This document shows, in pieces, positions 1,794 through 53,306 of a stretch of 64,000 nt of DNA. How positions within the stretch are numbered: the stretch's first letter is position 1; each line of letters starts with the position of its first letter. Location of the stretch: assembly GCA_030427205.1 (NCBI GenBank), contig JAUHXC010000011.1, positions 44,016 to 108,015 on the forward strand, in the 5' to 3' direction. The stretch comes from a bacterium. Its GTDB lineage: Bacteria > Myxococcota_A > Bradymonadia > UBA7976 > UBA1532. A program made the position numbers and the translations under genes. The notes beneath the pieces were generated by a model. The model was given only the letters and a program-made list of their open reading frames with translations. It had not been told where the DNA came from and ran no database searches.

Positions 1794-3356
1794 TCAGCGG
1801 CGCGCGGTGGCGCTGGCCTGGGTCTCGCGGATGACCATCACCTTGATCTGCCCCGGATAGATGCACTCGTCTTCGATGCGATAGGCGATGTCGTTGGCCA
1901 GCCGGGCCGCGGCCAGATCGTCCACCCGGCGGGGGTCGACCACCACCCGCACCTCGCGCCCGCCCGAGATCACGTAAGTATTGCGAATGCCCCGCGGCTT
2001 GAAGTCGGCGCAGATGGTCTGCACGTCTTCGACCCGCTGCGAGTACGACTCCACCGTCTCGCGGCGCGCGCCGGGCCGGGCGCCGCTGAGCGCGTCGGCC
2101 GCCGCCACCAGATGGGCCAGCGGCGACGACGGCTTCTCGTCGTTGTGGTGCGCCGCGATGGGGTGCACGATCTCGGGGGCCTCGCCGTGCGCCGTCGCAA
2201 AAGCGGCGCCGCTCACCGCGTGGCTGCCCACCGCCTCGGTCTCGGCCCACAGCACCTTGCCGATGTCGTGCATCAGCGCCGCCCGATGCGCGGTGCGGAT
2301 GTCGAGCCCCATGTCGCTGGCCATCATGCCGCACAGGTGCGCGGTCTCGATGGCGTGCTGCCACTGATTCTGGGTGTAGCTGGTGCGGTAGAGCAGCTTG
2401 CCCACCAGGAACTGGATCTCGCCGTGCACGTTGCGCAGCTTGAGGATCCGGGTGGCCCGCTTGCCGGCGTCGCGGCAGATCTTCTCCAGGTCGACCCGGG
2501 CTTTCTCGACGTACTGCTCGACCAGATCGATCGACGGGTCCTTGCGTCGCGCCAGCCGCTCGTACGCCAGGCGGCCGATCTCCCGGGTGTAGGGGTCGGG
2601 CGCCTGCATGTAGAAGCCGTCCTTGCCCTCCTGGGGCACGAACTCCACCTCGCTGAACTCGGCGATGCCGGCGAGGATCGCCCGACCATCGGCCAGAAAC
2701 CGCTCGCGGGCGGCCTTGTTGCGCGGCAGATCGACCGTCGCGATGAGCCGGTCGGCGGGCTTGGCCACCCCGTAGCGGTACATCGCGAGGTCCATCAGCC
2801 GGCGCGCCTCGACCTCGGCCCGGCTCTGCACCCGCTCCTCGTAGGCCCGGGCGGCCTTCTCGGCGGCGACGCGGGCCTCGCCGGTGAGCGCGTCGCCGAT
2901 GCGCTCGCTCATCGCGTCCCGGCTCTCCCCGGCGACCTCTTCGATGCGCTCGACGATGCGCTGCTCGAGCCCGTCGATCTCGTCGCGCAGCGCGTTGAGG
3001 TGTTGCCGGCGCGTCTTCATCTCGGCGGCCCGCTCGCCCAGCGCCCGATCGCGGGCCTCGGCGCTGTCATTGCGTCGACCGGCCGCGGCCTCCATCTGCT
3101 GAAGGCGGGCCTCGTCTTCGGCGAGCTGCTCGGTCTCGCTCGCGAGCTGGCGCTGCAGCCGATCGCGCAGCCGCTCGGCCCGTTCGAGGGCCGCCTCGCG
3201 GGCCACCTCGGCTTCGCCGCCGATCGCTTCGAGCTCGATCCGACCCTGGCGTCGCGCGCTCGAGACCGCCGCGTCCCGGCGACGGCGCGCGCCGATGGCC
3301 ATGGCCCCGGCGACGGTTCCGGCGGCAGCGACGGCGGTGGCAGCGGCGATGATCAT
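1794..3356 (-). CDS. rny: ribonuclease Y (N-terminal TM, KH domain, HD domain)
   Basis: Start taken at 'MIIAAATAVAAAGTVAGAMAI', an N-terminal membrane anchor. A long coiled-coil region follows, then a KH-like segment and the HD-domain motif 'AALMHDIGK'. The C-terminal region 'IKVMVIRETQ' is typical of RNase Y. The ORF's first 20 codons upstream (to 3416) are probably not translated. Confidence 0.85.
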   Translation of the reverse strand: MIIAAATAVAAAGTVAGAMAIGARRRRDAAVSSARRQGRIELEAIGGEAEVAREAALERAERLRDRLQRQLASETEQLAEDEARLQQMEAAAGRRNDSAEARDRALGERAAEMKTRRQHLNALRDEIDGLEQRIVERIEEVAGESRDAMSERIGDALTGEARVAAEKAARAYEERVQSRAEVEARRLMDLAMYRYGVAKPADRLIATVDLPRNKAARERFLADGRAILAGIAEFSEVEFVPQEGKDGFYMQAPDPYTREIGRLAYERLARRKDPSIDLVEQYVEKARVDLEKICRDAGKRATRILKLRNVHGEIQFLVGKLLYRTSYTQNQWQHAIETAHLCGMMASDMGLDIRTAHRAALMHDIGKVLWAETEAVGSHAVSGAAFATAHGEAPEIVHPIAAHHNDEKPSSPLAHLVAAADALSGARPGARRETVESYSQRVEDVQTICADFKPRGIRNTYVISGGREVRVVVDPRRVDDLAAARLANDIAYRIEDECIYPGQIKVMVIRETQASATARR

Positions 3357-3481
3357 GGATGTCTCCCGGGGCGGGCGCGTATGGCGCGGTTTCGAATGAT
3401 GACCACCTGCTGCCATCGTTTCAAGCGGCGGGCCGATCCCCAGAGCGATCGGGGCCTCTCGCCGCTGACCGGGCAGCCCGC

Positions 3482-4207
3482 TCAGCGGCGACGGCGTCGG
3501 CGTTTGGCCTCGGGCAGCCGGCGCAGGGCCGCCAGATCCTCCAGGCCGGCGAGCGTCGCCCGCAGATAACCCGGCGACAGCGTCTCGACCAGCGCCAGGG
3601 TGCGGGCGGCGAGCGCCTCGGGGTTGTACGGGCCGACGTCGTCGGCGACCCGATCGCTGGCCCGCGCGACGACCAGCGCGCTGCGGGCGTGATCCGCCGC
3701 CTCGCGGAACAGCGCCCGGGCGAGCTGATCGCCCACGGTGCGCAGCTCGGGCAGGTCGGCTGCGGCTTCGGCGGTCGCGGTGGCGGCGTGCACCCGGGCC
3801 CGCAGCGCCGGCTGAAGGGTGAGGCCGCGGCTGCGGGCCTGTCGCGCCAACCGCACCACCCGGGCCCGGGCGGCGTCGGCGTCGTCGGTGCGCGCCCGCC
3901 GCAGCGCCCGCGGGGCCTCGCGGCGCACGAAGCCGTAGTCTCCGCTGGCGAACGCCCGGGCGAAGTCACCGTCGGGATCGGCGTCGGCCGCGTCGAGGGT
4001 GGCCAGGGTCGCCCGCGCCTCCGCCCGGGCCGAGGCGAACGCCGCTTCGAAGCCCGACAGCCGCTCGGCGGCCCGTCGACGCAGGTGGTCGCCGGCCACG
4101 CCGTCGAGCCCCTCGGCCCGCTCGAGCAGCGCCTCGATGAAGCGAAAACCGGGCCCGTCGAAGACCTCCGCTCCACCGGCGCGCAATGTCTCGAGCCTGC
4201 GCTTCAA
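3482..4207 (-). CDS. DUF2894-like Ala/Arg-rich hypothetical protein; third gene of the MotA/MotB-like module
   Basis: In frame with the over-long ORF 3482..4918. There is no ATG. A TTG at 4207-4205 sits 6 nt downstream of AGGAGG and overlaps the TGA stop of the upstream MotB-like gene (TTGA overlap). The 242-aa product 'MKRRLETLRAGGAEVFDGPGFRFIEALLERAEG...' is helical. It resembles DUF2894 proteins found with DUF802 and OmpA genes. Confidence 0.5.
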   Translation of the reverse strand: MKRRLETLRAGGAEVFDGPGFRFIEALLERAEGLDGVAGDHLRRRAAERLSGFEAAFASARAEARATLATLDAADADPDGDFARAFASGDYGFVRREAPRALRRARTDDADAARARVVRLARQARSRGLTLQPALRARVHAATATAEAAADLPELRTVGDQLARALFREAADHARSALVVARASDRVADDVGPYNPEALAARTLALVETLSPGYLRATLAGLEDLAALRRLPEAKRRRRRR

Positions 4208-4893
4208 GGGCTGCCTCCTTGCGTCGGCGGCGGCAGGGTCGGCGCCCGCATGCCGCTCTGGGGCACCGGCACGATCTCCACCCGCCGATTGCGGGCCCGG
4301 CCGGCCTCGTCGGTATTGGGGGCCGCCGGGTGATGCGATCCGAAGCCGGCGGCGAAGAGCCGCTGCGGGGGCACCTCGTGGCTCAACAGCCCGCGGACCA
4401 CCGTCAGCGCCCGCTCGGTGGAGAGCTGCCAGTTGTCGGCGAAGCGTGGCCGATCGCCGTGGATCACCAGATCGTCGGTGAACCCTCCCACCATCACCAT
4501 CTGCTGCTGCTCGGTCAACCACCGGGCCAGCGGCGGGCCGATCTCGGCGAGCAGCGCGGCGCCCTCGGGGCGCAGGTCGGCGGAGTACAGGTCGAAGAGC
4601 ACGCTGCCGGCGATGGCGATGCGGCCGTCTTCCAGAGTGATGCGCCCCGCGGCCAGGGGCGCCGCCAGGGCCGCCTCCAGCGCCGCGAGCCGCTCGTCGG
4701 CCGCCTCGCGGGCCGTCTGCGCCTCGACCCGGGCCTCCTGCTCGGCTTCGAGCGAGGCGGCCAGGTCGACCTGGAACCACACCGCGACGACGAAGAAGAG
4801 CACGAACAGGCCCATCAGCCCGGCCATCAGGTCGCCGAAGACCAGCCAGACATGGCCGGTCTCGCCGGACACCTCGCGCTCGTCGAGCATCAT
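4204..4893 (-). CDS. MotB/ZorB-like stator subunit with OmpA-like peptidoglycan-binding domain
   Basis: 229 aa. A single N-terminal TM carries a conserved Asp, 'HVWLVFGDLMAGLMGLFVLFFVV', compared with MotB 'ADFMTAMMAFFLVMW'. The C-terminal OmpA-like domain ends in 'NRRVEIV'. Its ATG overlaps the upstream gene's TGA (ATGA). Confidence 0.85.
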   Translation of the reverse strand: MMLDEREVSGETGHVWLVFGDLMAGLMGLFVLFFVVAVWFQVDLAASLEAEQEARVEAQTAREAADERLAALEAALAAPLAAGRITLEDGRIAIAGSVLFDLYSADLRPEGAALLAEIGPPLARWLTEQQQMVMVGGFTDDLVIHGDRPRFADNWQLSTERALTVVRGLLSHEVPPQRLFAAGFGSHHPAAPNTDEAGRARNRRVEIVPVPQSGMRAPTLPPPTQGGSP

Positions 4894-7800
4894 CCGGCGA
4901 CCCCCGCCGCGCCCTCACCGCGCAGGGCGCGCAGCTCGGTGAACAGCTCCCGCTGGAAGCGCAGCGCGTCGCCGAAGACCTCGCGGGTCTGGTCGAGGTA
5001 CTCGCCGACGAGGCGCCCCGCCTGCTCCTCGCCGGTATTGCCCAGGCTGCCCTCCAGCTCGGCGAGCGTGGTCATCCAGCGCTCGTTGGCCTCGCGGTAG
5101 CCGTCCACCGCCTCGGCGAGCATCTGGGCCACCGCCGACAGCTCGGCGCCGCCGGCGGTGAGCAGATCGCCGCCCGCGCGCACGCCCAGGCCGACCTCGG
5201 TCAGCCGGGCGGTCAGCGCCTCGACGTGGGTCGACAGCGTGTCGGCCAGGGCGGCGTGGCTCTGGGAGCGGGCCTCGGCCATGCGCCCCTCGAACACCGC
5301 CAGCCGCTCGGTCTGCCGGTCGAGCGCCTCTTCGACCTTGCCCGCCAAGGCCGCGAGCCGGGCGCCGGCGGCCTCCTCGCTGGCCTCGGCGGCGGCGAAG
5401 CGGGCCTCGGTGGCGGCGTCCATGCGCTCGACGGTCTGCGACATGCCGGCGAGCAGCGCGTCGAGGCGCGCGTCGCGGGCCGCGTCAACGGCGGTGCGGG
5501 CCGCGAGCTGCGCCCCGGCCTGCTCGACCAGCTTCGCCGCGGCGGCCGGCGCCTCGGCGGCGGTGCGGGCGACCGCTTCGAGCGGCGCGGTCAGGCGCTC
5601 GCCCATCGCGCCGAGGTGCTCTTCGAGGGCGTGGTCGAGGCGGCCGAGCACCGCGGCGGCTTCGGTGGCCCGGGCGGTCTGCGCGGCGGCGAAGGCCTCG
5701 GCCTGCTCGGCCAGCGCGGCGCCCAGGCGCACGGTGGTCGCCTCGAGCCGCTCGGCGGTCTGCACGTCCAGATCGGCCAGCGCCGCCTGCACCGCCTCGA
5801 AGCGGGCCCCGATGCTCGCCGACTGACGGGCGCCCTCGACCGCCGCCGCCTCCAGGTGCAGGCGGGCGGCGTCGACCGCCTCGCCGAACGCGTGCAGCCG
5901 GGCGGCGTCGGCCTCGGCGGTGCCCAGCAGGCGGGCCTCGACGCGGCCCACCAGATCGTCGAGCCGGGCCGACAGCGCCTCGGCGCGCGCCTGCTCGGCC
6001 TCGGTCAGCCCGGTCACCGCTGTCTGCACGTCAGCCACCAGCGCCGTCAGCGGCGCGCCGATGGCCTGCAGGCCGTCCCGGGTCGCGTCCACGGCCCGAT
6101 CGAGCCGAACCAGCACCCCCTCCAGCCGCGCGTGGGCCGCGGCCTCCAGGCGGCCCGCCAGGGCCTCCAGCGCCGATTCCCGCGCCGCGTCGACCTCGGC
6201 GGCGTGCGCCCGGCGCTGCCCGTCGAGCGCCTCGAACCGCGCCGCGAGCCCTTCGAAGGCCGACCGCTGGCGCTCGGCGAGCGCGTCGGCCTGCGACCGG
6301 CGGGTGCGCTCGCTCTCCGCGAGCTGCTCGGCCAGCGCCGCCAGCGCCGCCCGCTGGGCGTCGACGGCCGCCTGGGTGCGGGACCCGCGCTCGACGTCCA
6401 GCGCTTCGAGCCGCCCGATCAGCGCGTCGAGGGCGTCTCGCTGGGCGCCGTCGGCTTCGGCCGCCGCGGTCGCGATGCGCTCACCCAACGCGGCGAGCGC
6501 AGCGCGATCGTCGGCCGAGAGCTGCGCCTGACGCTCGGCGCGCGCCTGCTCGGCCGCCTCGAGTCGGCTGGCCAGCGCCCCGAGCGCGGCCTGCTGCGCG
6601 TCCACCGCCGCCTCGATGCGCGCCGCCTGCGCCGCGCCGCGGGTATCGGCGGCGGCGCGCCGCTTGTCTTCGGCCTCTATCATGCGCCCGGCGAGCCCCT
6701 CGATCGCCGCCCGCTGGGTCTCGGCGGCCTCGATCAGCGCGTCGGCGCGGCGGGTATCGGCAGCGTCGATGCGCGTCGCCAGCGCTTCGAGCGCCGCGCT
6801 CTGACGGGCGGCCGCGGCCTCGGCCTCGGCCTGACGGCGGGCGTCGGCCTCTTCGACGCGCCGCACGGTCTGCGACCACTCGGCGGCCCGGGACACGGCC
6901 CGCGCCTGCTCGGCGCCTTCGAGCTGTTCGAGCAGCGCCGCGTGGGCCGCCTCGACGTGGGCCCGCAGCGAGGTGTCGGCCTCGGCCTGCCGCCGCACCA
7001 GCCCGTCGAGCCGGTCGAGCAGGTCGGCGTGGCGTCCGTGCGCCGCGGCATCGCGCGCGGTGGCGTGCTCCGCCCGGCGGCTCTCGGCGGCCTCGACGGT
7101 GCTCAGCATCGCCTCGACGTGGGCCACCAGCATGCCGTCGGCTTCGGCCCGCTGGCGGGCGGCGTCGTTGAGCCGGTCGAGCAGGGCGGCGTGGCGCTCG
7201 GCGTCGGCCGCCGCGCGGTCGGCGTCGCGGGCGGCGAGGGCGTCGGTCAGCGCGACGTGGCGTGCGTCCAACGCGGCGATGCGCGACGCCTCGGACGCGG
7301 CCAGCGTATCGGCGAGCCCGCCGATGTGCGCTTCGAGCGCCTCGGCCCGCAGCGCCTCGGCGGCGGCGCGGGTCTCTTCGGATTCGGTCACCGCCGACAG
7401 CACCCGGTCGAAGCCGGCGCCCAGCGCGTCCCGTCGGCGGGCCTCCTCGGCGGTCAGGGCCGCGGTCAGCCGCTGCACCTCCTCGCGGGTCGCCTGCCGG
7501 CCGGCCTCTTCGGCGGCGCGGCGGGCGTCGGCGTCGGCCGACAACATCTCGGTCCACTCGGCGGCGTGGCGCCCCACCGCGGCCTCGGCCCGCTCGGCGG
7601 CCTGCCCGGCCAACGCCGCGACCGCGGTCGACGTCTGCTCGACGCTCGCCGCGAAGCCCGCCGACAGCGCCTCGCGGATGTCGGCCGCAGCCCGGCCGAA
7701 CGCCGCCGCCGCGGCCTCGGCGGCTTTCTCCTGCGCGCCGACGGCCCGCTCGCCGACCGCCGTCTGGGCGTCGACGAGGCTCGACTCGAGCTGCTCGATG

Positions 7801-8504
7801 CGCGCCACGGCCCGGCCGAGCGCCTCGGCGGCGGCAGGCAGCGCCTCGCCCTGGCGCACCAACGCTTCGAGGACCGCCAGCTGACGCCCGGCGGGGGTCG
7901 TGGCCTCCAGGTTCGCGCCGGCCCATGAGGCCAGCCGCCGTCGGGCGCGGCGCTCGGCCCGCCGGACCCAGACCGCCGCCAGCCCCAGGGCCGCCGAGGC
8001 GGCGACGCCGGCGACCGAGGTGCCGAACGCCCGGGTGAGCCCGTCGATGGGGCCGGCCAGCCCCTGGCGCAGCGCGGTGACGTCGGCGGCGCCCAGCATC
8101 GCGCCGCGGGCGCCGGACAGCGTCTCGACCAGCCCGAGGAAGGTGCCGAAGAGCCCCAGCATCACCAACAAGCCCACCAGATAGGGCGTGAAGCCGACCG
8201 GCGCCCCGGGCGGGGTCTGGCCGGCGCGCACGGCGGCCACGAGCGCGCGCACGGCGGGCGAGGCGTCGTCGAGGCGGGTCTCGAAGTCGTCGGCGTCGCG
8301 GGCGGGCAACGTCGGGATCTCGTCGAGCAGCCGGCCGGCGGCGCTGGCCCGACGCCACAGCTCGACCGCGCCGACCCACAGCCCGAGGGTGATGCCGCCG
8401 AGGACCACCAGCGCCAGCGCGTCCTCTCCCCGATAGAACGCCGCGGCTCGGGCGATGAGCGCGGTGCCGAGTACGGTGAGCAGGGCGACGGCCAGACGCG
8501 GCAT
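4890..8504 (-). CDS. MotA/TolQ/ExbB-like proton-channel protein with a ~950-aa cytoplasmic coiled-coil tail (ZorA-like / DUF802-like)
   Basis: Start at ATG 8504, where GGAGGA lies 4-5 nt upstream ('MPRLAVALLTVLG...'). Four predicted TMs. TM3 carries the MotA/TolQ signature 'LVMLGLFGTFLGLVETLSGA'. A roughly 950-aa Ala/Glu/Arg/Asp-rich, internally repetitive alpha-helical region follows. The ORF track extends to 8585, but there is no RBS there. Confidence 0.8.
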   Translation of the reverse strand: MPRLAVALLTVLGTALIARAAAFYRGEDALALVVLGGITLGLWVGAVELWRRASAAGRLLDEIPTLPARDADDFETRLDDASPAVRALVAAVRAGQTPPGAPVGFTPYLVGLLVMLGLFGTFLGLVETLSGARGAMLGAADVTALRQGLAGPIDGLTRAFGTSVAGVAASAALGLAAVWVRRAERRARRRLASWAGANLEATTPAGRQLAVLEALVRQGEALPAAAEALGRAVARIEQLESSLVDAQTAVGERAVGAQEKAAEAAAAAFGRAAADIREALSAGFAASVEQTSTAVAALAGQAAERAEAAVGRHAAEWTEMLSADADARRAAEEAGRQATREEVQRLTAALTAEEARRRDALGAGFDRVLSAVTESEETRAAAEALRAEALEAHIGGLADTLAASEASRIAALDARHVALTDALAARDADRAAADAERHAALLDRLNDAARQRAEADGMLVAHVEAMLSTVEAAESRRAEHATARDAAAHGRHADLLDRLDGLVRRQAEADTSLRAHVEAAHAALLEQLEGAEQARAVSRAAEWSQTVRRVEEADARRQAEAEAAAARQSAALEALATRIDAADTRRADALIEAAETQRAAIEGLAGRMIEAEDKRRAAADTRGAAQAARIEAAVDAQQAALGALASRLEAAEQARAERQAQLSADDRAALAALGERIATAAAEADGAQRDALDALIGRLEALDVERGSRTQAAVDAQRAALAALAEQLAESERTRRSQADALAERQRSAFEGLAARFEALDGQRRAHAAEVDAARESALEALAGRLEAAAHARLEGVLVRLDRAVDATRDGLQAIGAPLTALVADVQTAVTGLTEAEQARAEALSARLDDLVGRVEARLLGTAEADAARLHAFGEAVDAARLHLEAAAVEGARQSASIGARFEAVQAALADLDVQTAERLEATTVRLGAALAEQAEAFAAAQTARATEAAAVLGRLDHALEEHLGAMGERLTAPLEAVARTAAEAPAAAAKLVEQAGAQLAARTAVDAARDARLDALLAGMSQTVERMDAATEARFAAAEASEEAAGARLAALAGKVEEALDRQTERLAVFEGRMAEARSQSHAALADTLSTHVEALTARLTEVGLGVRAGGDLLTAGGAELSAVAQMLAEAVDGYREANERWMTTLAELEGSLGNTGEEQAGRLVGEYLDQTREVFGDALRFQRELFTELRALRGEGAAGVAG

Positions 8505-8630
8505 CCGATCCTCCGGGGGCTGGTGCAGATACGGCAGCCGGTCATCGCCGACCGATCGACCGCTGTCAAGGGTCACGGGGGGCAAAAAACGTCACTGGTC
8601 CGGGCAGATGTATCGGTCGACCATGCGCCG

Positions 8631-11810: not shown

Positions 11811-14800
11811 TCAGCCGCGCAGGCCGGCGTCCACCTGCCGCAAGAGCGCCAGCAGCTCGTCGACCTTGGCCCCGATGGCCTGAGCGTCGTTGAGGTTGTC
11901 GGCGCTGGCCCGCACCAGCGGCACCAGCGTGCGCTCGATGAGCTGGACCTGCTGGGCCAGCAGCTCTTCGACCCCCGGCGGCGGCTGGTTGAGCACCTCG
12001 ACCTCGACCTTGGGCTGCTGCATGGTCTGCAGCGCCTTGCTCAGCTCGGTCAGCGCCGTCGACAGCCCCGGATCGGCCGCGCTGGGGATCGGCGGCGGCT
12101 GGCCCGGCTTGCGGCCCAGCGGCGGCAGGTTGCCCAGCGGGCTCGCCGCGAGCTTCTTCGCCGACGCGGCCTGCTCGGCGGCGGCCTCGATGGCCCCCTT
12201 GATGCCGTCGAGTCGCCCGCCGAGCGCGTCGAGCTTCGTGGTGGTCTCCGTGCTCTGCCCCAGCGCGCTGCGCAGCCCGCCCAGGCTCTGGGCGATCGAG
12301 GCCAGCGCCTTCTCGGTGCCCGGCTGCGCGCCGCTCCTGAGCGCCTCGCCGATGGCGTCCAGCCGCCCGCCGAGCCCGGCGATGGCCTGCTCGGTCTGCC
12401 CCGCGCCGGTCAACGCGGCGCGGATGGCCCCCAGCTCTTCGCCCAGCCCGCCCAGCGTGCCGGTGACCCGGGCCACCGGGTCGTCCTCGTCGCCGCCCAT
12501 CGTCTGGATGCGCTTGAAGCTGCGGCAGACCTCGGCGTAGCGCGCCTTCTGCTCGGGGGTCATGCGCCCGCGCAGCTGCGCCAGCTTGAGCAGGTTGTTC
12601 TCCGCGCCGCTCGTCAGCGTCTGCGACTCGCCGGTGTAGTGGTCGTCGATGAGCGACTCCACCTCGTCGGGCGTCATCGCCGCCATGACCTTCTCGGCCA
12701 TCTTGTTCATGTTGCGGTAGCTGCCCTGCAGCTTGAACGACGGCTCGGTGCGAAAAGCGTCGTCGGTCGCGGCGCTGAGGATGTACTGCATGTTGACCCG
12801 CAGCACGACCTCCTGGATCTGGGTCAAACGCTGCAATACGGCGGTGATCTCGCCGATCTCGACCCCCGAGTACCCGTGCTTGAGGTCGGTGGTCGGGATC
12901 TCCTCGCCCCGGCTCATGCGGATGAGCTTGTAGACGTCGTCCTGGCTGCGGGTGGCCAGCGGCGCGAGCACCGGGTTCGAGGTGAGCGCGTTCTCGATGT
13001 ACGACAGCGAGAAGACGTCTTCCTTGCCGTCGAGGATGTCGCCCAGGTTGTAGGTGTCGGCGCGGTTGGCCAGCATGTCGGGGATGACGAACTTGGCCCC
13101 CGTCTCGGTGTACGGGTTGCCGGCCATGATCACGCAGAACTTCTTGCCCCGCATGTCGTAGGTGCGCGTGCGCCCGCGCCAGACGCCCTCGATCTTGCGC
13201 TGCCCGTCACACAGCGAGATGAACTTCTGCAAGAACTCGGGATCGAGGTGCTGCACGTCGTCGAGATAGAGCATGACGTTATTGCCCATCTCGAAGCCCA
13301 GGTTGACCTTCTCGACCTCCTGGCGCGCGGTCGCGTTGGGCGCCTCGCCCGGATCGAGGCTGACGACGCCGTGGCCCAGCGAGGGCCCGTTGACCTTGAC
13401 GAAGACCAGCCCCAGCCGATTGGCGACGTACTCCATCAGGGTCGTCTTGCCGTAACCGGGCGGCGAGATGAGCAGCAACAGGCCCATCAGATCGGTGCGT
13501 TTGTCGTTGCCCGCCGCGCCCATCTGCTTGGCGAGGTTGTCGCCGATGAGGTGCAGGTAGACGTCGTTGATGAGCTTGTTGCGCACGAAGCTGCTCATCA
13601 CCCGCGGCTGGAACTCGTTGAGCCGCAGCCGCCGCTTGCCGTCCTCGATGACCGCGGCCCGCTGCTTGCGATAGGCCCGATAGCCGGGCACCGTCACCTC
13701 GATGAAGCGGGTCAGGCGGTCGAGGAAGGTATCCAGCGCCAGCTGCATGACCTGATCGCTGATGCGCGGGTGCTGCCCCAACAGCCCGCGGACCTCGGTG
13801 CGGGTCACCGCGCTGCTCGTCTCGCGGTCGAGCTTGGGCCCGCCGATGATCACCGCCGCTTCGAGCACCAGCGGGTCTTCGGGGTCGAGGGCGGTGCCCT
13901 CCACCAGCGCCTCGATCCAGGCCCGCGCCACCGCGATGCGCCCGGCCAGGTCGCCGTCGAGCGCGCGCAGGTCGGCCTCGAAGTCGCGCCGGGTATTGGT
14001 CTCGTCGAGGTGCTGCCACAGCCGCTCGGTCAGCTCGACCGCCTCGCGGCTGGTGGTGAAGCGCGGCGGCTCGGCGCCCAGCTCTTCGACCAGATAGCGC
14101 CCCGCGAGCGTCCCGTGCCCCGCCAGCGTCGGCAGGCCGGCCAGCTCGGCGAAGGCGCGGATCTCGCCGGCCAGCTCTTCGGCCAGCGCGCCCATGGCCG
14201 CCGGCGTGCGCCCGAAGCTCTGCCGCAGCCGACCCAGGTTCATGCCTTTACGCTGCCAGCGGCCCTTGGCCTCGCGGTCGCCGTATGACCCCCAGAAGAG
14301 CGCCGCCACCGCCCGCGGGGCCGGCCCGAAGCGCAAGAGCCCGGCCGCGGTGTGCATGTGCAAGAGCTTCTCGAGGATGAGCGCCGCGTCGCTGTCGTGC
14401 AGCCCGCGCTCGTAGCCCTCCTCGTAGCGCTCGCGGGCGATCTCCGAGACCAGCTCGAGCAGCCCGCCGTCCTCCCGCTGAGCGTCGAGCAGGCGTTGAA
14501 TGGACAGCCCGCCGTCGCCGCGCTCGGCGGCGAAGAGCAGCGTCGCAGCCAGATACTCGGCGCGGTAGACCTGCTTGTTCTCCGAGACGACGGTCTGCGA
14601 CCAGTAGGGCTTGCTGGCGAGGAAGCCCTCGTCTTCGACCGGCTCGTAGAAGTCGGTGCCGGTCAGGTGCAGCGCCATGCCCTCGCCGCGGGGCACCATC
14701 GTCAGCTCGAGGGTCTGGGTATTGACGTTGAACAGGTGCCGCCCGAAGCGGATGAGGTCGGCGCCCTCCTCGAAGAGCTCGAGCTTGTCGCGCAGCCCGC

Positions 14801-17339
14801 GCAGGGCGTCCTGGCGGGCCTGCTTGAGCCGCCCGGCCAGCTCGTCGCCGCGCACCCCGTCGCCCAGCTTGGTCAGCTGCTCGGAGAACGCGCGCAGCTT
14901 CTGCACCATGCCGTCGGCGGCGAAGTAGGCGTTGAGCGCGTCTTCGTCCTTGAAGTTGCGGGTGCGCCGGGCGACGCCCTCGAGGATGCGGTCGGCGGCG
15001 CCCATGATGTTCTGCACCCGCCGGTTGCGCTCGTCGAGCAGCGTCTGCTTGCGGGTATTGAACGCCTCGTAGACCTCGTCCCGCTTGGCGGCCAGGTCGC
15101 CGAGGAACTCGTCGAACTCGCTGAAGCGGGCCTCGAGCTCTTCGAGCAGCACCATCAGCCGCGAGAGCTCTTCGTCGCAGCGCTCGGGGCTGTCGCACAT
15201 CGCCAGCGCGCTCTGCACGCTCTGGCCGAAGAGCTTGAACTGCGCCCCGAACTCGGCGCGGCCCTCTCTGCCGAGCAACGACTTGCGCCGCCCTTCGACG
15301 GTGGCCCGCACCCGGTTGAGGTGGCCGAAGACCTCGCCGATGCCCTCCAGGATGGTCGTGCGCTGGGTGGCGTCGTCAATCTGAAGGCCCGCGATGACCT
15401 CGGTCAGCAGATCGAGGCCCTCGCTCAGCTCGACCAGACGGGCGCGCAGCGGCTCGATCTCGGTGACCTTCTCGACCTTGCCCGAGTCGGCGAGCACCTT
15501 CTCCAGGTCGCGCTTGAGCGGCCCGAGCGCCTCGTCGCGCAGCAGGAACTGCACGCAGTCGCGGGTCAGTGAGTCGAACTGCTCGACCGCCTCGGCTTCG
15601 AGGGCGTCGAGCCGGGCCTGGTCGATGAAGCGCACCTCGCGGATCGTGATCAGGTGCCCCCGCTGCTGCCGCAGCGCCGTCATCGCCTTCATGTAGCCGT
15701 CGACCGAGTTGAGCGTATGGCTGCGCACCTCGGTGAGGATCTGCTGCTGGTTGGCCTCGGTCTCGGCCAGCGCGTCGGCCGCCTGCTTGCGCAGGATGAG
15801 CACCTTCTCGAACTCGTCGACGATGAGCTCGGCGGTGCGGGCGAGCGTATCGAGGGCCGCCTTGAAGGCGACCTCGGCGTGGTCGAGCCAGTAGTAGCTG
15901 TCCCGCATGCGGGTGATGGCGGCGATCAGGTCTTCGTAGGTCCGCCGATCGGGCTCGGCGCGGCCGATGAGCCGGTCGATCGAGAAGGCGTCGCTGATGC
16001 CGCGCACCAGCTCGGCGTTGCCCACCTTCGAGAGGAAGGAGCCGTCGGTCGGCGCCGCCGCGGCGAACTCGGCCGAGACGAAGGGCGTGCGCCAGACCTG
16101 CATCGGGTGCACCCGGCTCGGCTCGATGGCGGCCTTGAAGACCACCATGCGCCCGTCTTCGAACAGGCTGTAGCCGTTGCAGGTGATCGGGCTCTGCACC
16201 GCCTTGCGGATGAGGTTGTACGGCAAGAGCACGTACTCCCCCTCCTCGCGGCGGTGGAAGATGTAGAGCACGTCCTCGCCGTTGGGCGACTTGATGACCC
16301 GCTTGAAGCGCAGCCCGTCGAGCGGGGTGTCGAAGACCTTGTAGTCGCCGCTCTCGAGGTAGTAGCCGCCGGGGAAGATGATCCCGTGGTCTTCGGGCAG
16401 CTGCACGCAGGCCCGGCCGATGGCGTCGATGCGCACCACGCTGCGGGTGCGGGTATTGAACACCAGGTAGCGATAGTCGGGCTCGCGATAGGGCTTGATC
16501 CGCAGCAGGATCAGCGGCCCCAGCTCGGCGTAGTGGATCTCGCCGTCGTCGAGGGTCTGGTTGGCGTCCTCGACGGGCTCGCGATAGATGCCCTGCCCGT
16601 CTTCGGTATTGTCTTCGATCTTGACGGTGAGGTCGCCGCCGACGGTCTCGACGAAGACCTTGTCGAGGATGTTGACGTGCGGATGGCGCCCGGCCACCTG
16701 CTGCTCACGGCCGGTCGGGGTCCACTCGAAGTCGTGGCTGGCGGGGAAGGTATGGTCCCGATCGCCGCGGTTGTCGATGTAGGTCAGCCCGCCGCCCGGG
16801 TCGACCCGCCAGCGGCAGACCTTGATGTCGTCGGCGCTCGCGCCGATGCGAAAGACCGACATCAAGCGGGTGTCGGTGCTGCGCAGCAGCATCAGCTCGC
16901 AGTCGCGGTAGTAGCGGAAGAGGTCGCCGAAGTCCTTTCGGAAGTCGGTGTTCTGCAAGAAGCCCACGTCGCCGTCGGGCACCCGGCTGAAGTCGTAGCC
17001 GTCCGCCGCCTCTTCGAAGCGATACAGCCCGAAGACGTCCTCGACCTTGGTCTCCTGCTTGAGCCCCAGCGTCAGCTGATAGCCCACCAGCAGCTGGCCG
17101 CCGACGTTGACCACGTCGCGGGTGACGCAGTTGTGCTCGGTGCGCACCCGGCCGTTGGCCAGCACCGCCAGCTCGGTGCCGCCGAAGGTCTCTTTGCGGC
17201 GCTCGTTGAGGGCCTCGGCCTTCTCGCGCAGGGTCTTGCCCTGCGCCTCGAGCCGGCGGCGGATGACGGCGTAGTTGCCCCCGGCGAGCGCGGCGTCTTC
17301 GCCGGATTCGAGGGCGACGTCCTGTGTCTCTTCGGCCAT
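11811..17339 (-). CDS. giant (1842 aa) AAA+ ATPase-domain protein of unknown function, encoded downstream of nfeD-flotillin
   Basis: ATG 17339 has GGGGGAGAG 7 nt upstream. The N-terminal ~450 aa are beta-rich, followed by long coiled-coil segments. The AAA+ core is near residues 1350-1500: Walker A 'LLLISPPGYGKTTLMEY', Walker B 'VMLYLDDVQHL', sensor-1-like 'FCVIMAGNPYTE' (AAA_5/dynein-like). The C-terminus is coiled-coil/Gly-Leu repeat-rich. It lies 92 nt downstream of the flotillin gene. Confidence 0.85.
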   Translation of the reverse strand: MAEETQDVALESGEDAALAGGNYAVIRRRLEAQGKTLREKAEALNERRKETFGGTELAVLANGRVRTEHNCVTRDVVNVGGQLLVGYQLTLGLKQETKVEDVFGLYRFEEAADGYDFSRVPDGDVGFLQNTDFRKDFGDLFRYYRDCELMLLRSTDTRLMSVFRIGASADDIKVCRWRVDPGGGLTYIDNRGDRDHTFPASHDFEWTPTGREQQVAGRHPHVNILDKVFVETVGGDLTVKIEDNTEDGQGIYREPVEDANQTLDDGEIHYAELGPLILLRIKPYREPDYRYLVFNTRTRSVVRIDAIGRACVQLPEDHGIIFPGGYYLESGDYKVFDTPLDGLRFKRVIKSPNGEDVLYIFHRREEGEYVLLPYNLIRKAVQSPITCNGYSLFEDGRMVVFKAAIEPSRVHPMQVWRTPFVSAEFAAAAPTDGSFLSKVGNAELVRGISDAFSIDRLIGRAEPDRRTYEDLIAAITRMRDSYYWLDHAEVAFKAALDTLARTAELIVDEFEKVLILRKQAADALAETEANQQQILTEVRSHTLNSVDGYMKAMTALRQQRGHLITIREVRFIDQARLDALEAEAVEQFDSLTRDCVQFLLRDEALGPLKRDLEKVLADSGKVEKVTEIEPLRARLVELSEGLDLLTEVIAGLQIDDATQRTTILEGIGEVFGHLNRVRATVEGRRKSLLGREGRAEFGAQFKLFGQSVQSALAMCDSPERCDEELSRLMVLLEELEARFSEFDEFLGDLAAKRDEVYEAFNTRKQTLLDERNRRVQNIMGAADRILEGVARRTRNFKDEDALNAYFAADGMVQKLRAFSEQLTKLGDGVRGDELAGRLKQARQDALRGLRDKLELFEEGADLIRFGRHLFNVNTQTLELTMVPRGEGMALHLTGTDFYEPVEDEGFLASKPYWSQTVVSENKQVYRAEYLAATLLFAAERGDGGLSIQRLLDAQREDGGLLELVSEIARERYEEGYERGLHDSDAALILEKLLHMHTAAGLLRFGPAPRAVAALFWGSYGDREAKGRWQRKGMNLGRLRQSFGRTPAAMGALAEELAGEIRAFAELAGLPTLAGHGTLAGRYLVEELGAEPPRFTTSREAVELTERLWQHLDETNTRRDFEADLRALDGDLAGRIAVARAWIEALVEGTALDPEDPLVLEAAVIIGGPKLDRETSSAVTRTEVRGLLGQHPRISDQVMQLALDTFLDRLTRFIEVTVPGYRAYRKQRAAVIEDGKRRLRLNEFQPRVMSSFVRNKLINDVYLHLIGDNLAKQMGAAGNDKRTDLMGLLLLISPPGYGKTTLMEYVANRLGLVFVKVNGPSLGHGVVSLDPGEAPNATARQEVEKVNLGFEMGNNVMLYLDDVQHLDPEFLQKFISLCDGQRKIEGVWRGRTRTYDMRGKKFCVIMAGNPYTETGAKFVIPDMLANRADTYNLGDILDGKEDVFSLSYIENALTSNPVLAPLATRSQDDVYKLIRMSRGEEIPTTDLKHGYSGVEIGEITAVLQRLTQIQEVVLRVNMQYILSAATDDAFRTEPSFKLQGSYRNMNKMAEKVMAAMTPDEVESLIDDHYTGESQTLTSGAENNLLKLAQLRGRMTPEQKARYAEVCRSFKRIQTMGGDEDDPVARVTGTLGGLGEELGAIRAALTGAGQTEQAIAGLGGRLDAIGEALRSGAQPGTEKALASIAQSLGGLRSALGQSTETTTKLDALGGRLDGIKGAIEAAAEQAASAKKLAASPLGNLPPLGRKPGQPPPIPSAADPGLSTALTELSKALQTMQQPKVEVEVLNQPPPGVEELLAQQVQLIERTLVPLVRASADNLNDAQAIGAKVDELLALLRQVDAGLRG

Positions 17340-17431
17340 CGGGCACTCTCCCCCGGGCGGAGCCGGGCGGGCGGCTGGGGTCGCGGTCGCCCGGGCCCGC
17401 GCGGCGGGTCGGGCCCACTGTCAGGCGGCGA

Positions 17432-19618: not shown

Positions 19619-19680
19619 CGCGATTTCCCCCTCGGCCGGCGCGCGAGCCGGCCGTCTGCAGTCGGATCTCTACAAACGAA

Positions 19681-20577
19681 TCAAACGTCGAGCGGCTCGA
19701 CCACGTAGGCCTCCCGCTCCCGGTCGAAGTCGATGACCAGCACCGTGTCGCCGCGGCCGATGCCCTTCTCGGGCTTGGCGCGCACCTCGATGCGCAGGAA
19801 GTCGCCGCCCACCTTGCAGTCGGCCAGCCCGAAGCGCTCGGTGACCTTGCCGGTGGTGACCACCGCGGTATTGCCCACCACGTCGGCCCGGGTGCGGCCG
19901 GTGCTGCCCACGAAGACCGGCGCCAGCGGCCGGATGATGATCGAGGTGAACGGCACGGCGACCACGAAGGCGCCCAGGCCCACCAGCGGCACCAGCGCGA
20001 TGTTCGGCAGCGTGCCGCCGAGGTAGTACATGCCCAGCATCGACAGCGCCCAGCCGGTCAGCACGATCGAGCTGATGACCACCGTCATCGGCGCCGAGCG
20101 CAGCTTGAGCGCGCTGAGCAGCTGCGCCAGCCCGCTGCCGCCAGCCAGCTTGCCCGCCAGGCCATCGCCGTCGGCGGCCCCGTCTGCGATGCCATCGGCG
20201 GCCCCATCGGCCAGCCCGTCCGCCGCCCCGTCGGCCAGCCCGTCGGCCGCCCCGTCGAAGGCGCCGTCCAGCGCCTCGGCGGCCCCATCGGCCACGCCGT
20301 CCGCCGCGCCGTCCAGGGCTCCGTCGAGCGCGCCGTCCAGCGCCTCGCCGGCCCCTTCGAAGGCGCCGTCGGCCAACCCCTCGACCGCCCCTTCGGCCAA
20401 GGCCTCGGCGCCGCCCTCGGTGCCGCCCTCCAGCAGCCCGTCGGCGTCGCCGATGTCGAGCATGTCGATGTCGAGGGCGCCGAGCACGACGAACAGCCAG
20501 TACACCACGATCACCACCAGCAGGATGGTGTAGACCACCGTGGGGAAGGCAAGGGCAGCGGCGAGCAGCTCGGGCAT
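19681..20577 (-). CDS. NfeD/YqiJ-like membrane protein with C-terminal OB-fold
   Basis: ATG 20577 ('MPELLAAALAFPTVVYTILLVVIVVYWLF...'). Three or four TMs. An unusual (A/L)DG(A/L) acidic repeat linker is encoded by degenerate 12-bp tandem repeats. The C-terminal beta-barrel 'VVGNTAVVTTGKVTERFGLADCKVGGDFLRIEVRA...GDTVLVIDFD' is an NfeD C-terminal domain. The gene is 62 nt upstream of the flotillin gene on the same strand. Confidence 0.85.
   Translation of the reverse strand: MPELLAAALAFPTVVYTILLVVIVVYWLFVVLGALDIDMLDIGDADGLLEGGTEGGAEALAEGAVEGLADGAFEGAGEALDGALDGALDGAADGVADGAAEALDGAFDGAADGLADGAADGLADGAADGIADGAADGDGLAGKLAGGSGLAQLLSALKLRSAPMTVVISSIVLTGWALSMLGMYYLGGTLPNIALVPLVGLGAFVVAVPFTSIIIRPLAPVFVGSTGRTRADVVGNTAVVTTGKVTERFGLADCKVGGDFLRIEVRAKPEKGIGRGDTVLVIDFDREREAYVVEPLDV
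20150..20420 (-). repeat. degenerate 12-bp tandem repeat encoding the (A/L)DG(A/V) acidic linker of the NfeD-like protein
   Basis: DNA reads 'gccgtcggccagcccgtcggccgccccgtcgaaggcgccgtccag...' with a 12-nt periodicity. The translated repeat is 'DGALDGALDGAADGVADGAAEALDGAFDGAADGLADGAADGLADGAADGIADGAADGDG'. Confidence 0.6.
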
Positions 20578-20703
20578 GGGCTCCGCGGGTATCGTTCGGG
20601 TCGTCGGCGGATCGAGACTGAACCTGTCGGTCACGCACGTCAAGGGGCCGTCTACCCCGCTCGATGTGGTCCCCGCCGAGACGGTGCGCTAGGGTGCGTT
20701 GCG

Positions 20704-40913: not shown

Positions 40914-41080
40914 GCCCGCCGCGCCGTCCACCCGCGGCCCCTCCGTTCGACCCCCCTTCCAACTTCGTCCGCGCCCGACGACGTCTCGTCGACCAGCGCC
41001 CGCTCGTCGGCGACCCGCACCAAAAATCCTGCAGGCCCCCCGGGTGACCCACTACAGTGCGGTCTCTCGCGGAGGTCGTC

Positions 41081-53300: not shown

Positions 53301-53306
53301 AGATCG

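What the first reader, a model, noticed from the sequence alone, without database searches (positions are those of the whole stretch)
3482..8504. Stator module with a giant coiled-coil tail (ZorAB-like / DUF802-DUF2894-OmpA-like) and no flagellar context
Three minus-strand genes are translationally coupled through ATGA and TTGA overlaps. The first is a 4-TM MotA/TolQ/ExbB-like protein of 1204 aa. Its TM3 carries the proton-channel signature 'LGLFGTFLGL'. The second is a MotB-like protein with the conserved TM Asp ('FGDLMAGLMG') and an OmpA peptidoglycan-binding domain. The third is a 242-aa Ala/Arg-rich DUF2894-like protein. No flagellar, Tol-Pal or Ton genes are nearby. MotA homologues with very long cytoplasmic coiled-coil tails define the Zorya anti-phage systems (ZorA/ZorB). 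Here the tail is ~950 aa, longer than I recall for typical ZorA. ZorC and ZorD are absent and replaced by an uncharacterised third gene. This may be an unusual Zorya-like or DUF802-type envelope-anchored machine of unknown output.
Basis: partly seen in the sequence, partly recalled or inferred. Interest (0 to 1): 0.85.

Follow-up and report, generated by a model that had tools for sequence, protein, structure and literature searches.

The report
Zorya type III operon lacking DUF3348
These three genes are a reduced version of the known Zorya type III anti-phage system: a membrane motor with an unusually long cytoplasmic tail and one helical partner, but without the fourth gene that normally defines the type.

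Summary
Three intact, overlapping minus-strand genes lie at 3482-8504. They encode a 1204-aa four-TM protein with a roughly 1000-residue helical tail, a 229-aa MotB-like protein (TM Asp21, OmpA domain) and a 241-aa DUF2894 protein.

This gene set already has a name. PADLOC profiles match ZorA3 (3.9e-71), ZorB3 (1.9e-75) and the DUF2894 component (9e-18) of Zorya type III, defined in 2021 and shown there to protect E. coli from phages.

Two things differ from the canonical form:
- **No DUF3348 gene.** A 57-sequence profile finds six DUF3348 genes beside zorA in other loci (three built into the profile, three independent, E 5e-32 to 2e-47). It finds nothing in the 64-kb window or in 12 close relatives. 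Four other relatives keep the gene, so it was lost.
- **A very long tail.** At 1204 aa this ZorA exceeds all 132 nearest representatives of at least 500 aa (median 745, maximum 1016). Close relatives range from 801 to 1204 aa, with conserved head and tip and a variable middle.

The DUF2894 protein is predicted all-helical, with no recognisable enzyme fold. The window holds no flagellar, Tol or Ton genes.

Verdict: a new variant of a known kind. Its output mechanism is unknown, as it is for all type III systems. Moderate interest.

The parts
4890..8504 (-). zorA (type III class), 1204 aa: MotA/ExbB/TolQ-like membrane head plus a very long helical tail
   Evidence: PADLOC ZorA3 3.9e-71 and 1.9e-70. 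phmmer to solved type I ZorA 8vvn_C 1.2e-6. Start supported by a Shine-Dalgarno site and by homologue N-termini.
7944..8504 (-). ZorA head, residues 1-187: four predicted TM helices, with invariant G120-T121-F122 in TM3 and T162-S163 in TM4
   Evidence: Hydropathy. AF2 model with mean pLDDT 84.4. Foldseek top hits are ZorA 8vvn, ExbB, TolQ, ZorA 8qyd and MotA. Invariant columns in a 38-sequence alignment.
5178..7943 (-). ZorA tail shaft, residues 188-1109: Ala/Arg/Glu/Leu-rich, almost uninterrupted helix; variable in sequence and length between relatives
   Evidence: Only 3 Pro after residue 224. Hydrophobic periodicity of 3.63 residues, power 6.2 against a shuffle maximum of 1.6. 29-69% identity and many indels in relatives.
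4893..5177 (-). ZorA conserved tail tip, residues 1110-1204 (motif YLDQTREVFGDALRFQRELFTELRALR)
   Evidence: 44-97% identical to nine relatives (72% or more in five of the seven that lack DUF3348), against 29-69% for the shaft. The same motif ends many family representatives.
4204..4893 (-). zorB (type III class), 229 aa: single TM with Asp21 (codon 4833-4831) and a C-terminal OmpA-like peptidoglycan-binding domain; ATGA overlap with zorA
   Evidence: PADLOC ZorB3 1.9e-75. NCBIfam PRK09040 250.5 bits, above its 194 cut-off. Pfam OmpA 1.1e-14. Hit to ZorB 8vvn_B including the TM, 4.3e-6. Overlap read.
3482..4207 (-). DUF2894 gene (ZorF3 in PADLOC-DB v2; called ZorG in the 2021 paper text), 241 aa: all-helical with a polybasic C-terminus; TTG start in a TTGA overlap with zorB
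   Evidence: Pfam DUF2894 1.9e-16. PADLOC ZorF3 9e-18. AF2 mean pLDDT 85.5, eleven helices. Alignment of 30 homologues. Start read.
8505..8627 (.). Intergenic region between zorA and a divergent secreted BNR/Sortilin-like gene. This is where a DUF3348 gene sits in canonical type III loci; none is present.
   Evidence: Sequence. Pfam on the divergent ORF. DUF3348 profile search of all six frames.

Best explanation
This is a three-gene derivative of the Zorya type III anti-phage system that has lost its DUF3348 component.

Inferred assembly (by homology to solved type I and II complexes): ZorA and ZorB form an inner-membrane 5:2 complex. The OmpA-like domain of ZorB anchors it to peptidoglycan. 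Proton flow past ZorB Asp21 and the conserved Thr/Ser of ZorA TM3 and TM4 can turn the ZorA pentamer.

Inferred tail: the C-terminal ~1015 residues of ZorA form one long helical bundle. It would reach about 140-150 nm into the cytoplasm, roughly twice the E. coli type I tail, and it ends in a conserved tip.

Inferred partner: the DUF2894 protein is an all-helical protein with a polybasic C-terminus. It is the only dedicated cytoplasmic partner and most likely works at the tail tip.

Inferred mechanism, by analogy with type I: phage-induced envelope perturbation releases the motor, and tail movement passes the signal inward. The operon encodes no nuclease. The most likely outputs are therefore infection arrest through proton-motive-force drain or membrane effects, or recruitment of a factor encoded elsewhere. 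Direct DNA degradation by an operon-encoded enzyme is unlikely.

Shown here: gene structure, family membership of all three proteins, absence of DUF3348 from the window, tail anatomy, and conservation of the three-gene form. Inferred: stoichiometry, rotation, trigger, output and the anti-phage role itself.
For: - **Family.** PADLOC ZorA3, ZorB3 and ZorF3 score 3.9e-71, 1.9e-75 and 9e-18. Type I and II profiles score at least about 55 orders of magnitude weaker. NCBIfam PRK09040 is above its cut-off for ZorB.
- **Motor features.** The ZorA head matches solved ZorA 8vvn_C. Its AF2 model retrieves ZorA, ExbB, TolQ and MotA chains as top folds. Asp21 is kept in all relatives. GTF and TS motifs are invariant in 38 homologues. 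ZorB carries an OmpA domain.
- **Tail.** Only three prolines follow residue 224. A 3.63-residue hydrophobic period runs through residues 191-1110, far above shuffles. E. coli ZorA makes a roughly 70 nm pentameric tail from about 507 residues (PMC11946911).
- **DUF3348 loss.** A 57-sequence profile scores six DUF3348 genes beside zorA in other loci at 5e-32 to 1.9e-111. Three of them were part of the profile (L084, L085, L086); three are independent (L089, L093, L097; 5e-32 to 2.2e-47). It finds nothing better than E 0.05 in the window or in 12 related loci.
- **Selection.** All three ORFs are intact in all but one of the 12 DUF3348-less relatives complete enough to judge (L008 zorA is frameshifted; L001 and L098 are cut at contig ends). 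ZorB is 65-89% identical to the window's in the seven compared. Gene overlaps are retained.
- **Experimental precedent.** The four-gene Stenotrophomonas nitritireducens type III system reduced plaquing in E. coli and protected cultures at MOI <0.1 (PMC8565338).
- **Context.** A candidate defence pair, HEC-01 (ATPase + DUF4276), lies 12 kb away. The same kind of pair sits beside the Sorangium type III locus.
Against: - No type III system has been dissected, so nobody knows whether a system without DUF3348 can defend. In type I every gene is required.
- Only 64 kb of the genome is visible, so a DUF3348 gene could lie elsewhere.
- The block is syntenic with a TIGR02757 gene and a secreted-protein gene across loci at 55-75% identity. 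That looks more like vertical inheritance than a mobile defence island. No integrase or transposase domain was found in the window ORFs scanned with Pfam.
- Pfam MotA_ExbB does not detect the head, and fold matches are weak (E 4e-3, TM 0.4-0.56).
- The DUF2894 fold search returned only generic helical bundles, so nothing supports any particular output.
Confidence: 0.65

Rival explanations
1. A vertically inherited, non-defence envelope-to-cytoplasm machine. The ZorAB-like motor and its DUF2894 partner would serve a housekeeping or stress-sensing role in this Myxococcota-like lineage. The anti-phage label would come only from heterologous over-expression of a distant four-gene relative.
For: The zorABF-TIGR02757-secreted-protein arrangement recurs in at least 8 loci. 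ZorB and the neighbouring TIGR02757 protein have diverged to similar degrees, 57-73% in most pairs. No mobile-element genes flank the operon in the window. The operon has no nuclease or other recognisable effector.
Against: The module is dispensable or disrupted in some genomes. zorA is interrupted in L088 compared with L087, and a gene is inserted between zorA and zorB in L004. Neighbours differ in the window itself: RNase Y-like downstream, no TIGR02757. Flanks upstream of zorA vary among relatives. A candidate defence pair is nearby, here and in Sorangium. The only experiment on this family showed phage protection.
Confidence: 0.2
2. A complete type III system whose DUF3348 gene lies elsewhere in the genome, outside the 64-kb window.
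For: Only a fragment of the genome is available. In type I all components are needed, which makes a missing partner suspicious.
Against: Canonical systems keep the DUF3348 gene immediately upstream of zorA, often overlapping it. No DUF3348 gene was found within up to 10 kb either side (as far as each contig reaches) in 12 independent DUF3348-less relatives. Relocation would have to be repeated or ancient.
Confidence: 0.1
3. A decaying, non-functional remnant of a type III system after loss of the DUF3348 gene.
For: A defining component is missing. Some relatives show damage: zorA is frameshifted in L008 and interrupted in L088.
Against: The window's three ORFs are intact and translationally coupled with Shine-Dalgarno sites. 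Asp21, GTF and TS motifs and the tail tip are conserved across relatives diverged to 54-68% ZorB identity. A 3.6-kb ORF would not stay open by chance.
Confidence: 0.05
4. An ordinary flagellar, Tol-Pal, Ton or gliding (Agl) stator paralogue.
For: There is general MotA/MotB-like similarity. NCBIfam MotB, MotD and PomB-type models hit the OmpA domain.
Against: All those NCBIfam hits are far below their cut-offs (for example MotD 93 bits against 283). The best profiles by far are ZorA3 and ZorB3. No Mot, Tol or Exb stator has a 1000-residue tail. No flagellar, Tol, Ton or Agl partner genes were found in the window.
Confidence: 0.01

Closest known systems
Zorya type III (DUF3348-ZorA-ZorB-DUF2894), for example the Stenotrophomonas nitritireducens DSM 12575 system tested by Payne et al. 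2021 (PMC8565338); canonical examples fetched here are L084, L085 and L097
   Same: ZorA3-, ZorB3- and DUF2894-class proteins in the same A-B-DUF2894 order on one strand with overlapping genes. The tail-tip motif and the polybasic DUF2894 C-terminus are shared.
   Different: There is no DUF3348 gene upstream of zorA or anywhere in the window. ZorA is 1204 aa, against about 660-780 aa in the canonical examples. The host is a 72% GC Myxococcota-like lineage rather than Burkholderia, Xanthomonas or Stenotrophomonas.
Sorangium cellulosum So ce26 type III locus (L086; the DUF2894 gene is SOCE26_098790)
   Same: A myxobacterial type III system with a long ZorA (1097 aa), ZorB and DUF2894. It lies next to a DUF4276 + AAA_15/21 pair like the one in the window.
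   Different: It retains a divergent DUF3348 gene directly upstream of zorA (PADLOC ZorG3 6e-5; 54 Polyangiales homologues, several with PF11828). Identity to the window proteins is only 46-54%.
Zorya type I ZorAB (E. coli 8QYD, Hu et al. 2024; Shewanella 8VVN, Mariano et al. 2025)
   Same: The motor family is the same. Sequence hits reach 8vvn_C and 8vvn_B, and these chains are the top fold hits. Both have the conserved TM Asp, a peptidoglycan-binding ZorB and a long helical ZorA tail that is essential in type I.
   Different: Type I ZorA has three TM helices. This one has four hydrophobic segments, like MotA. The tail is about 1015 residues against about 507. The effectors ZorC and ZorD (DNA binding, nuclease) are absent, and no nuclease is encoded in the operon.
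MotAB, PomAB, ExbBD and TolQR 5:2 ion-driven motors
   Same: Shared features are the fold of the membrane head, the Asp in the B-subunit TM, and the OmpA-like peptidoglycan-binding domain as in MotB and PomB.
   Different: Pfam MotA_ExbB gives no hit. There are no flagellar, Ton or Tol partners. A giant tail replaces a rotor- or TonB/TolA-interacting surface.

Membership tests
Zorya type III (PADLOC) | ZorA of the type III class | tested here: met
   PDLC00648 3.9e-71 and PDLC00647 1.9e-70. The best type I or II ZorA profile scores 1.6e-12.
Zorya type III (PADLOC) | ZorB of the type III class | tested here: met
   PDLC00651 1.9e-75, covering 10-214 of the 229 aa. NCBIfam PRK09040 scores 250.5 bits, above its 194 cut-off.
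Zorya type III (PADLOC) | DUF2894 protein encoded directly after zorB | tested here: met
   Pfam PF11445 scores 61.6 bits, above its cut-off of 25. PADLOC ZorF3 9e-18. TTGA overlap with zorB.
Zorya type III (PADLOC) | DUF3348 protein encoded directly upstream of zorA (canonical four-gene order) | tested here: not met
   Upstream of zorA lies a 123-bp gap and then a divergent BNR-like gene. PADLOC on 28 window ORFs listed no ZorG among the 25 best of 34 matching families; the nine not shown are all weaker than 6.5e-5. A 57-sequence DUF3348 profile run on all six frames gave a best window E of 0.54. Six DUF3348 genes beside zorA in other loci, three of them not used to build the profile, scored 5e-32 to 1.9e-111.
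Zorya type III (PADLOC) | Protection against phage | not testable with these tools
   This was shown only for the four-gene S. nitritireducens system in E. coli (PMC8565338).
5:2 MotA/ExbB/TolQ-type ion-driven motors | A-subunit recognised by Pfam MotA_ExbB (PF01618) | tested here: not met
   No hit at E<=1. The relationship is supported instead by phmmer to 8vvn_C (1.2e-6) and by fold hits to ZorA, ExbB, TolQ and MotA.
5:2 MotA/ExbB/TolQ-type ion-driven motors | Conserved acidic residue in the B-subunit TM helix, and polar Thr/Ser in the A-subunit channel helices | tested here: met
   ZorB Asp21 is present in all relatives. ZorA T121 and T162/S163 are invariant in 38 sequences and align to the equivalent TM residues of 8vvn_C.
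5:2 MotA/ExbB/TolQ-type ion-driven motors | Peptidoglycan-binding OmpA-like domain on the B subunit (MotB/PomB/ZorB branch) | tested here: met
   Pfam OmpA scores 55 bits, above its 27.2 cut-off. PDB MotB and PomB hits reach 2.8e-16.
5:2 MotA/ExbB/TolQ-type ion-driven motors | A5B2 stoichiometry and rotation | not testable with these tools
   The structure tool takes single chains only. This needs a multimer prediction or cryo-EM.
DUF802 (PF05650) proteins | Match to the Pfam DUF802 repeat | tested here: not met
   There is no hit at E<=1 for the window ZorA. Several more distant relatives carry PF05650 (L085).
Zorya types I and II | ZorC + ZorD (type I) or ZorE (type II) next to zorAB | tested here: not met
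   The PADLOC family table for 28 window ORFs (best 25 of 34 families shown) lists no ZorC, ZorD or ZorE, and nine ORFs scanned individually gave none. ZorA and ZorB score far lower on type I and II profiles.

The most novel reading that the evidence does not exclude
The three-gene form (ZorA, ZorB and DUF2894 only) could be a self-sufficient, naturally minimised Zorya. The DUF3348 protein would then be dispensable. The output would need no dedicated nuclease, for example controlled proton-motive-force collapse, or tail-tip and DUF2894 action on the nucleoid or membrane. The evolvable tail of 800-1200 residues, with fixed head and tip, would act as a tunable reach or ruler. Alternatively, the module may not be immune at all. 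It could be a vertically inherited mechanotransducer that reports envelope state deep into the cytoplasm of these bacteria.
Probability: 0.25. Interest if true: 0.7.

Novelty: new variant of a known kind. Interest (0 to 1): 0.4.

Why it matters
Zorya type III is common in genome surveys (6,401 systems counted in 2021), but its mechanism is unknown and neither accessory protein has an assigned activity.

A conserved natural form that keeps ZorA, ZorB and the DUF2894 protein but drops the DUF3348 protein offers a ready-made dissection. If it defends, the DUF3348 protein is not essential, and the DUF2894 protein is the minimal partner of the motor.

The relatives also form a natural tail-length series (801, 817, 850, 976, 1147, 1190, 1198 and 1204 residues) with the same head and tip. 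This makes the claim from type I work, that tail length and integrity matter, directly testable.

Practically, annotation pipelines that require all four genes will miss or mislabel these loci in Myxococcota-like genomes.

Tried and rejected
- **TIGR02757/DUF2400 as a replacement for the DUF3348 protein.** This gene follows zorF in most relatives and overlaps it in L010. I rejected the idea because L093 has both a DUF3348 gene and TIGR02757, L092 lacks TIGR02757 but keeps the next gene, and the window has neither. The adjacency is inherited synteny.
- **DUF3348 domain fused into the long ZorA.** Rejected. Pfam and PADLOC scans of the full protein and the DUF3348 profile on the ORF gave nothing.
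- **Massilia and Oxalobacteraceae loci L032, L041, L043 and L080 as canonical type III comparators.** Rejected. They have no ZorA-like gene and look like a different MotAB-type cluster. Most of the other 70 loci match only the OmpA domain.
- **Internal repeats in the tail.** BLASTP self-comparison gave no off-diagonal hits, and Tandem Repeats Finder gave only trivial GC-rich microrepeats. The length differences are therefore not recent tandem duplications.
- **Identifying the source genome.** An exact-sequence look-up of ZorB found nothing on record. The closest locus, L004 (an unclassified MAG), is 89-90% identical in ZorB.
- **The metagenome scan.** It returned only four loci.
- **Promoter and terminator scan.** It gave no terminator between zorF and the RNase Y-like gene, and only a weak promoter-like site that overlaps that gene's start codon. 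Operon boundaries stay open.


Full report
**1. What is in the sequence**

The window is about 72% GC. Three co-directional ORFs with strong third-position GC bias lie on the minus strand.

- zorA runs 8504..4890 and encodes 1204 aa. It starts at ATG four bases after GGAGGA.
- zorB runs 4893..4204 and encodes 229 aa. Its ATG overlaps the zorA stop as ATGA.
- The DUF2894 gene runs 4207..3482 and encodes 241 aa. It starts at TTG in a TTGA overlap with the zorB stop, with AAGGAGG seven bases upstream.

Thirty homologues begin at the position of the TTG. The quoted motifs are present.

Upstream of zorA there is a 123-bp gap and then a divergent gene for a secreted BNR/Sortilin-like protein. Downstream, 65 bp after the DUF2894 stop, lies an RNase Y-like gene. 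None of the 40 window ORFs scanned with Pfam, the three operon genes included, is a flagellar, Tol-Pal or Ton component.

**2. Family assignment**

Pfam recognises the OmpA domain of ZorB (55 bits) and DUF2894 (61.6 bits). It finds nothing in ZorA, neither MotA_ExbB nor DUF802, even at E<=1.

PADLOC profiles are decisive:

| Protein | Type III profile | Best type I or II profile |
|---|---|---|
| ZorA | ZorA3, 3.9e-71 | 1.6e-12 |
| ZorB | ZorB3, 1.9e-75 | 2.1e-20 |
| DUF2894 protein | ZorF3, 9e-18 | none |

NCBIfam PRK09040, the ZorB3-type family, is above its cut-off. All MotB, MotD, PomB and TssL models are far below theirs.

The ZorA head also matches the solved type I ZorA of Shewanella (8vvn_C, 1.2e-6) across the two channel-lining helices. 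ZorB matches 8vvn_B including its TM. An AlphaFold2 model of residues 1-300 (38-sequence alignment, mean pLDDT 84.4) retrieves ZorA 8vvn, ExbB, TolQ, ZorA 8qyd and MotA as its best folds. The scores are weak (E 4e-3, TM 0.4-0.56).

**3. This is a named system**

Zorya type III was defined by Payne et al. 2021 as zorAB flanked by a DUF3348 gene and a DUF2894 gene. They counted 6,401 instances. The Stenotrophomonas nitritireducens system lowered plaquing of at least one of the coliphages tested and protected cultures from phage PVP-SE1 at MOI <0.1 (PMC8565338).

The canonical order is DUF3348-A-B-DUF2894 (PMC11946911). [quoted passage not shown] The library holds no mechanistic study of type III.

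The letters F and G are used inconsistently. The 2021 text calls DUF3348 ZorF, while PADLOC-DB v2 calls DUF2894 ZorF3. I therefore refer to the two proteins by domain.

**4. The missing DUF3348 gene**

Canonical loci fetched as controls carry a DUF3348 gene that abuts or overlaps zorA: L084, L085, Sorangium L086, L089, L093 and L097.

- In the window that position is empty.
- PADLOC on 28 window ORFs listed no ZorG among the 25 best of 34 matching families.
- A three-sequence profile and then a 57-sequence profile were run on all six frames. The larger one combined the three starting sequences (L084, L085, L086) with 54 Polyangiales homologues.
- The larger profile scored its three member sequences at 1.9e-111 to 2e-58. 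It scored the three independent upstream genes of L089, L093 and L097 at 5e-32 to 2.2e-47.
- It found nothing better than E 0.05 in the window or in the related loci L001, L004-L010, L087, L090, L096 and L098.

L089 and L097 are among the nearest 50%-identity representatives of the window's ZorA head. The profile is therefore sensitive at the relevant distance.

The count among close relatives is 13 loci without the gene (including the window) and 4 with it. In a ZorB neighbour-joining tree the two kinds are interleaved. This indicates loss from a four-gene ancestor, possibly more than once.

**5. The neighbouring TIGR02757 gene is synteny, not a replacement**

Most relatives have a TIGR02757/DUF2400 gene and then a gene for a secreted 475-552-aa protein just after the DUF2894 gene. 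I considered TIGR02757 as a substitute for the DUF3348 protein. L093 carries both, L092 lacks TIGR02757, and the window lacks it too.

ZorB and TIGR02757 have diverged to similar degrees between loci. This points to long co-inheritance of a chromosomal block, which is somewhat atypical for a defence island.

**6. ZorA anatomy**

- **Head.** Four hydrophobic segments lie at 4-22, 29-47, 108-126 and 160-180. That is one more than the three TM helices of E. coli type I ZorA.
- **Tail composition.** After residue 224 there are only three prolines.
- **Tail periodicity.** Large hydrophobic residues recur every 3.63 residues across positions 191-1110. The power is 6.2, against 1.05 +/- 0.18 for shuffles (maximum 1.6). 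Every 154-residue sub-window gives 3.60-3.69. This is not the 3.5 of a left-handed heptad coiled coil. It is close to 11/3, which fits the right-handed pentameric tube modelled for E. coli ZorA.
- **Tail length estimate.** Scaling from E. coli (about 70 nm for about 507 residues) gives about 140-150 nm. This is an inference.
- **Conservation pattern.** The head is 42-84% identical to nine relatives, the last 95 residues 44-97%, and the shaft 29-69% with many indels.
- **Length range.** Close relatives measure 801, 817, 850, 976, 1097, 1147, 1190, 1198 and 1204 aa.
- **Comparison with the wider family.** Among the 150 nearest representatives in a 1.8-billion-protein library, the 132 of at least 500 aa have a median of 745 aa, a 95th percentile of 894 and a maximum of 1016. 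The window's ZorA is longer than all of them.
- **Not a categorical break.** PADLOC already holds a 1063-position ZorA3 profile.

**7. The DUF2894 protein**

Invariant features are an N-terminal FDGPGFRF-like motif, a GPYN motif and a polybasic C-terminus (RRRRRR here). The C-terminus is also basic in the proteobacterial example. Nothing suggests catalysis.

**8. Mechanism**

By homology, ZorA5B2 is a peptidoglycan-anchored, proton-driven motor. Asp21 in ZorB and the invariant T121 and T162/S163 in ZorA are in place. In type I the tail is essential and relays activation to cytoplasmic effectors.

Here the only dedicated partner is the DUF2894 protein, and the conserved tail tip is its most plausible docking site. 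This is an inference.

No nuclease is encoded in the operon, and the tested type III system protected only at low MOI. I therefore favour an arrest or abortive-type output, or recruitment of a factor encoded elsewhere, over direct DNA degradation. This step is the weakest in the model.

**9. Alternatives**

- **A non-defence, vertically inherited role** is the main rival. The synteny supports it. Against it stand natural disruptions (L088, L004), variable upstream flanks, and a neighbouring HEC-01 candidate defence pair both here and beside the Sorangium locus.
- **A DUF3348 gene elsewhere in the genome** cannot be excluded from 64 kb.
- **A decaying remnant** is unlikely, given intact coupled ORFs and conserved functional residues across diverged relatives.
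- **A flagellar, Tol, Ton or gliding paralogue** is excluded.

**10. Verdict**

The new elements are the conserved three-gene form lacking DUF3348 in a Myxococcota-like lineage, and a tail at or beyond the known upper range with a natural length series. This is a new variant of a known kind, of moderate interest (0.4).

Noticed in passing
window 30822-33764 (-), with 26594-30862 (-) alongside: A 981-aa bacterial protein matches eukaryotic major vault protein. Pfam gives MVP_shoulder 3.4e-18 and Vault_3 1.1e-6, and phmmer reaches solved MVP chains at 7e-16 over about 500 residues. It sits next to a 1423-aa ORF with no Pfam or NCBIfam match.
   Followed up: partly
window 11811-20688 (-): This looks like a three-gene operon. 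It encodes a 1842-aa DUF3686 + DUF7902 + AAA ATPase, followed by 745-aa and 335-aa proteins with no Pfam, PADLOC or NCBIfam match. The last has an N-terminal TM and a Gly/Ala/Asp-rich repeat. It resembles an uncharacterised conflict or repair system.
   Followed up: partly
window 20704-21933 (+) and 21930-22532 (+): An ABC-type ATPase (409 aa) overlaps a DUF4276 gene by 4 bp. The DUF4276 protein matches the PADLOC candidate defence component HEC-01B at 3.3e-58. A DUF4276 + AAA_15/21 pair also lies about 3.5 kb from the Sorangium So ce26 type III Zorya locus (L086).
   Followed up: partly
L004 7105-8157: In the closest relative (ZorB 89-90% identical), a 350-aa actin-like gene lies between zorA and zorB. 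It has an N-terminus 'DPIVIDAGSGSVRAGFTSDDAPR' and a partial NCBIfam 'syringactin' match at 8.7e-33. Its GC content differs from that of its neighbours.
   Followed up: no
L088 6497-9336 compared with L087 5893-9336: Two metagenome contigs carry the same locus. In one, zorA is cut down to 403 aa, and a 358-aa minus-strand gene occupies the place of its 5' half. This natural disruption shows the module can be lost.
   Followed up: no
window 1794-3416 (-): The gene 65 bp downstream of the DUF2894 gene is RNase Y-like, with HD and RNase_Y_N domains. It scores 339 bits on TIGR03319, below that model's 454 cut-off. No terminator-like site separates it from the operon. The closest relative, L004, has a TIGR02757 gene here instead, so a rearrangement breakpoint lies directly after the operon.
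   Followed up: partly
L004-L008, L010, L087, L090, L093 downstream of the DUF2894 gene: A TIGR02757/DUF2400 gene and a gene for a secreted 475-552-aa protein with a CxGxDDDCDGxIDE motif are syntenic with the Zorya operon across many relatives. In L010 the TIGR02757 gene overlaps the DUF2894 gene by 4 bp.
   Followed up: yes
literature (PMC8565338, PMC11890865) compared with PADLOC-DB v2: The names ZorF and ZorG are swapped between sources. The papers call DUF3348 ZorF and DUF2894 ZorG, while PADLOC-DB v2 profiles label DUF2894 as ZorF3 and DUF3348 as ZorG3. Hu et al. write both zorFABG and zorGABF.
   Followed up: yes
window 41048-44671 (+) and 53301-56849 (+): Other large genes in the window include a 1208-aa CotH kinase + lamin-tail-domain protein and a 1183-aa AAA_16 + TPR (STAND-type) protein.
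   Followed up: no
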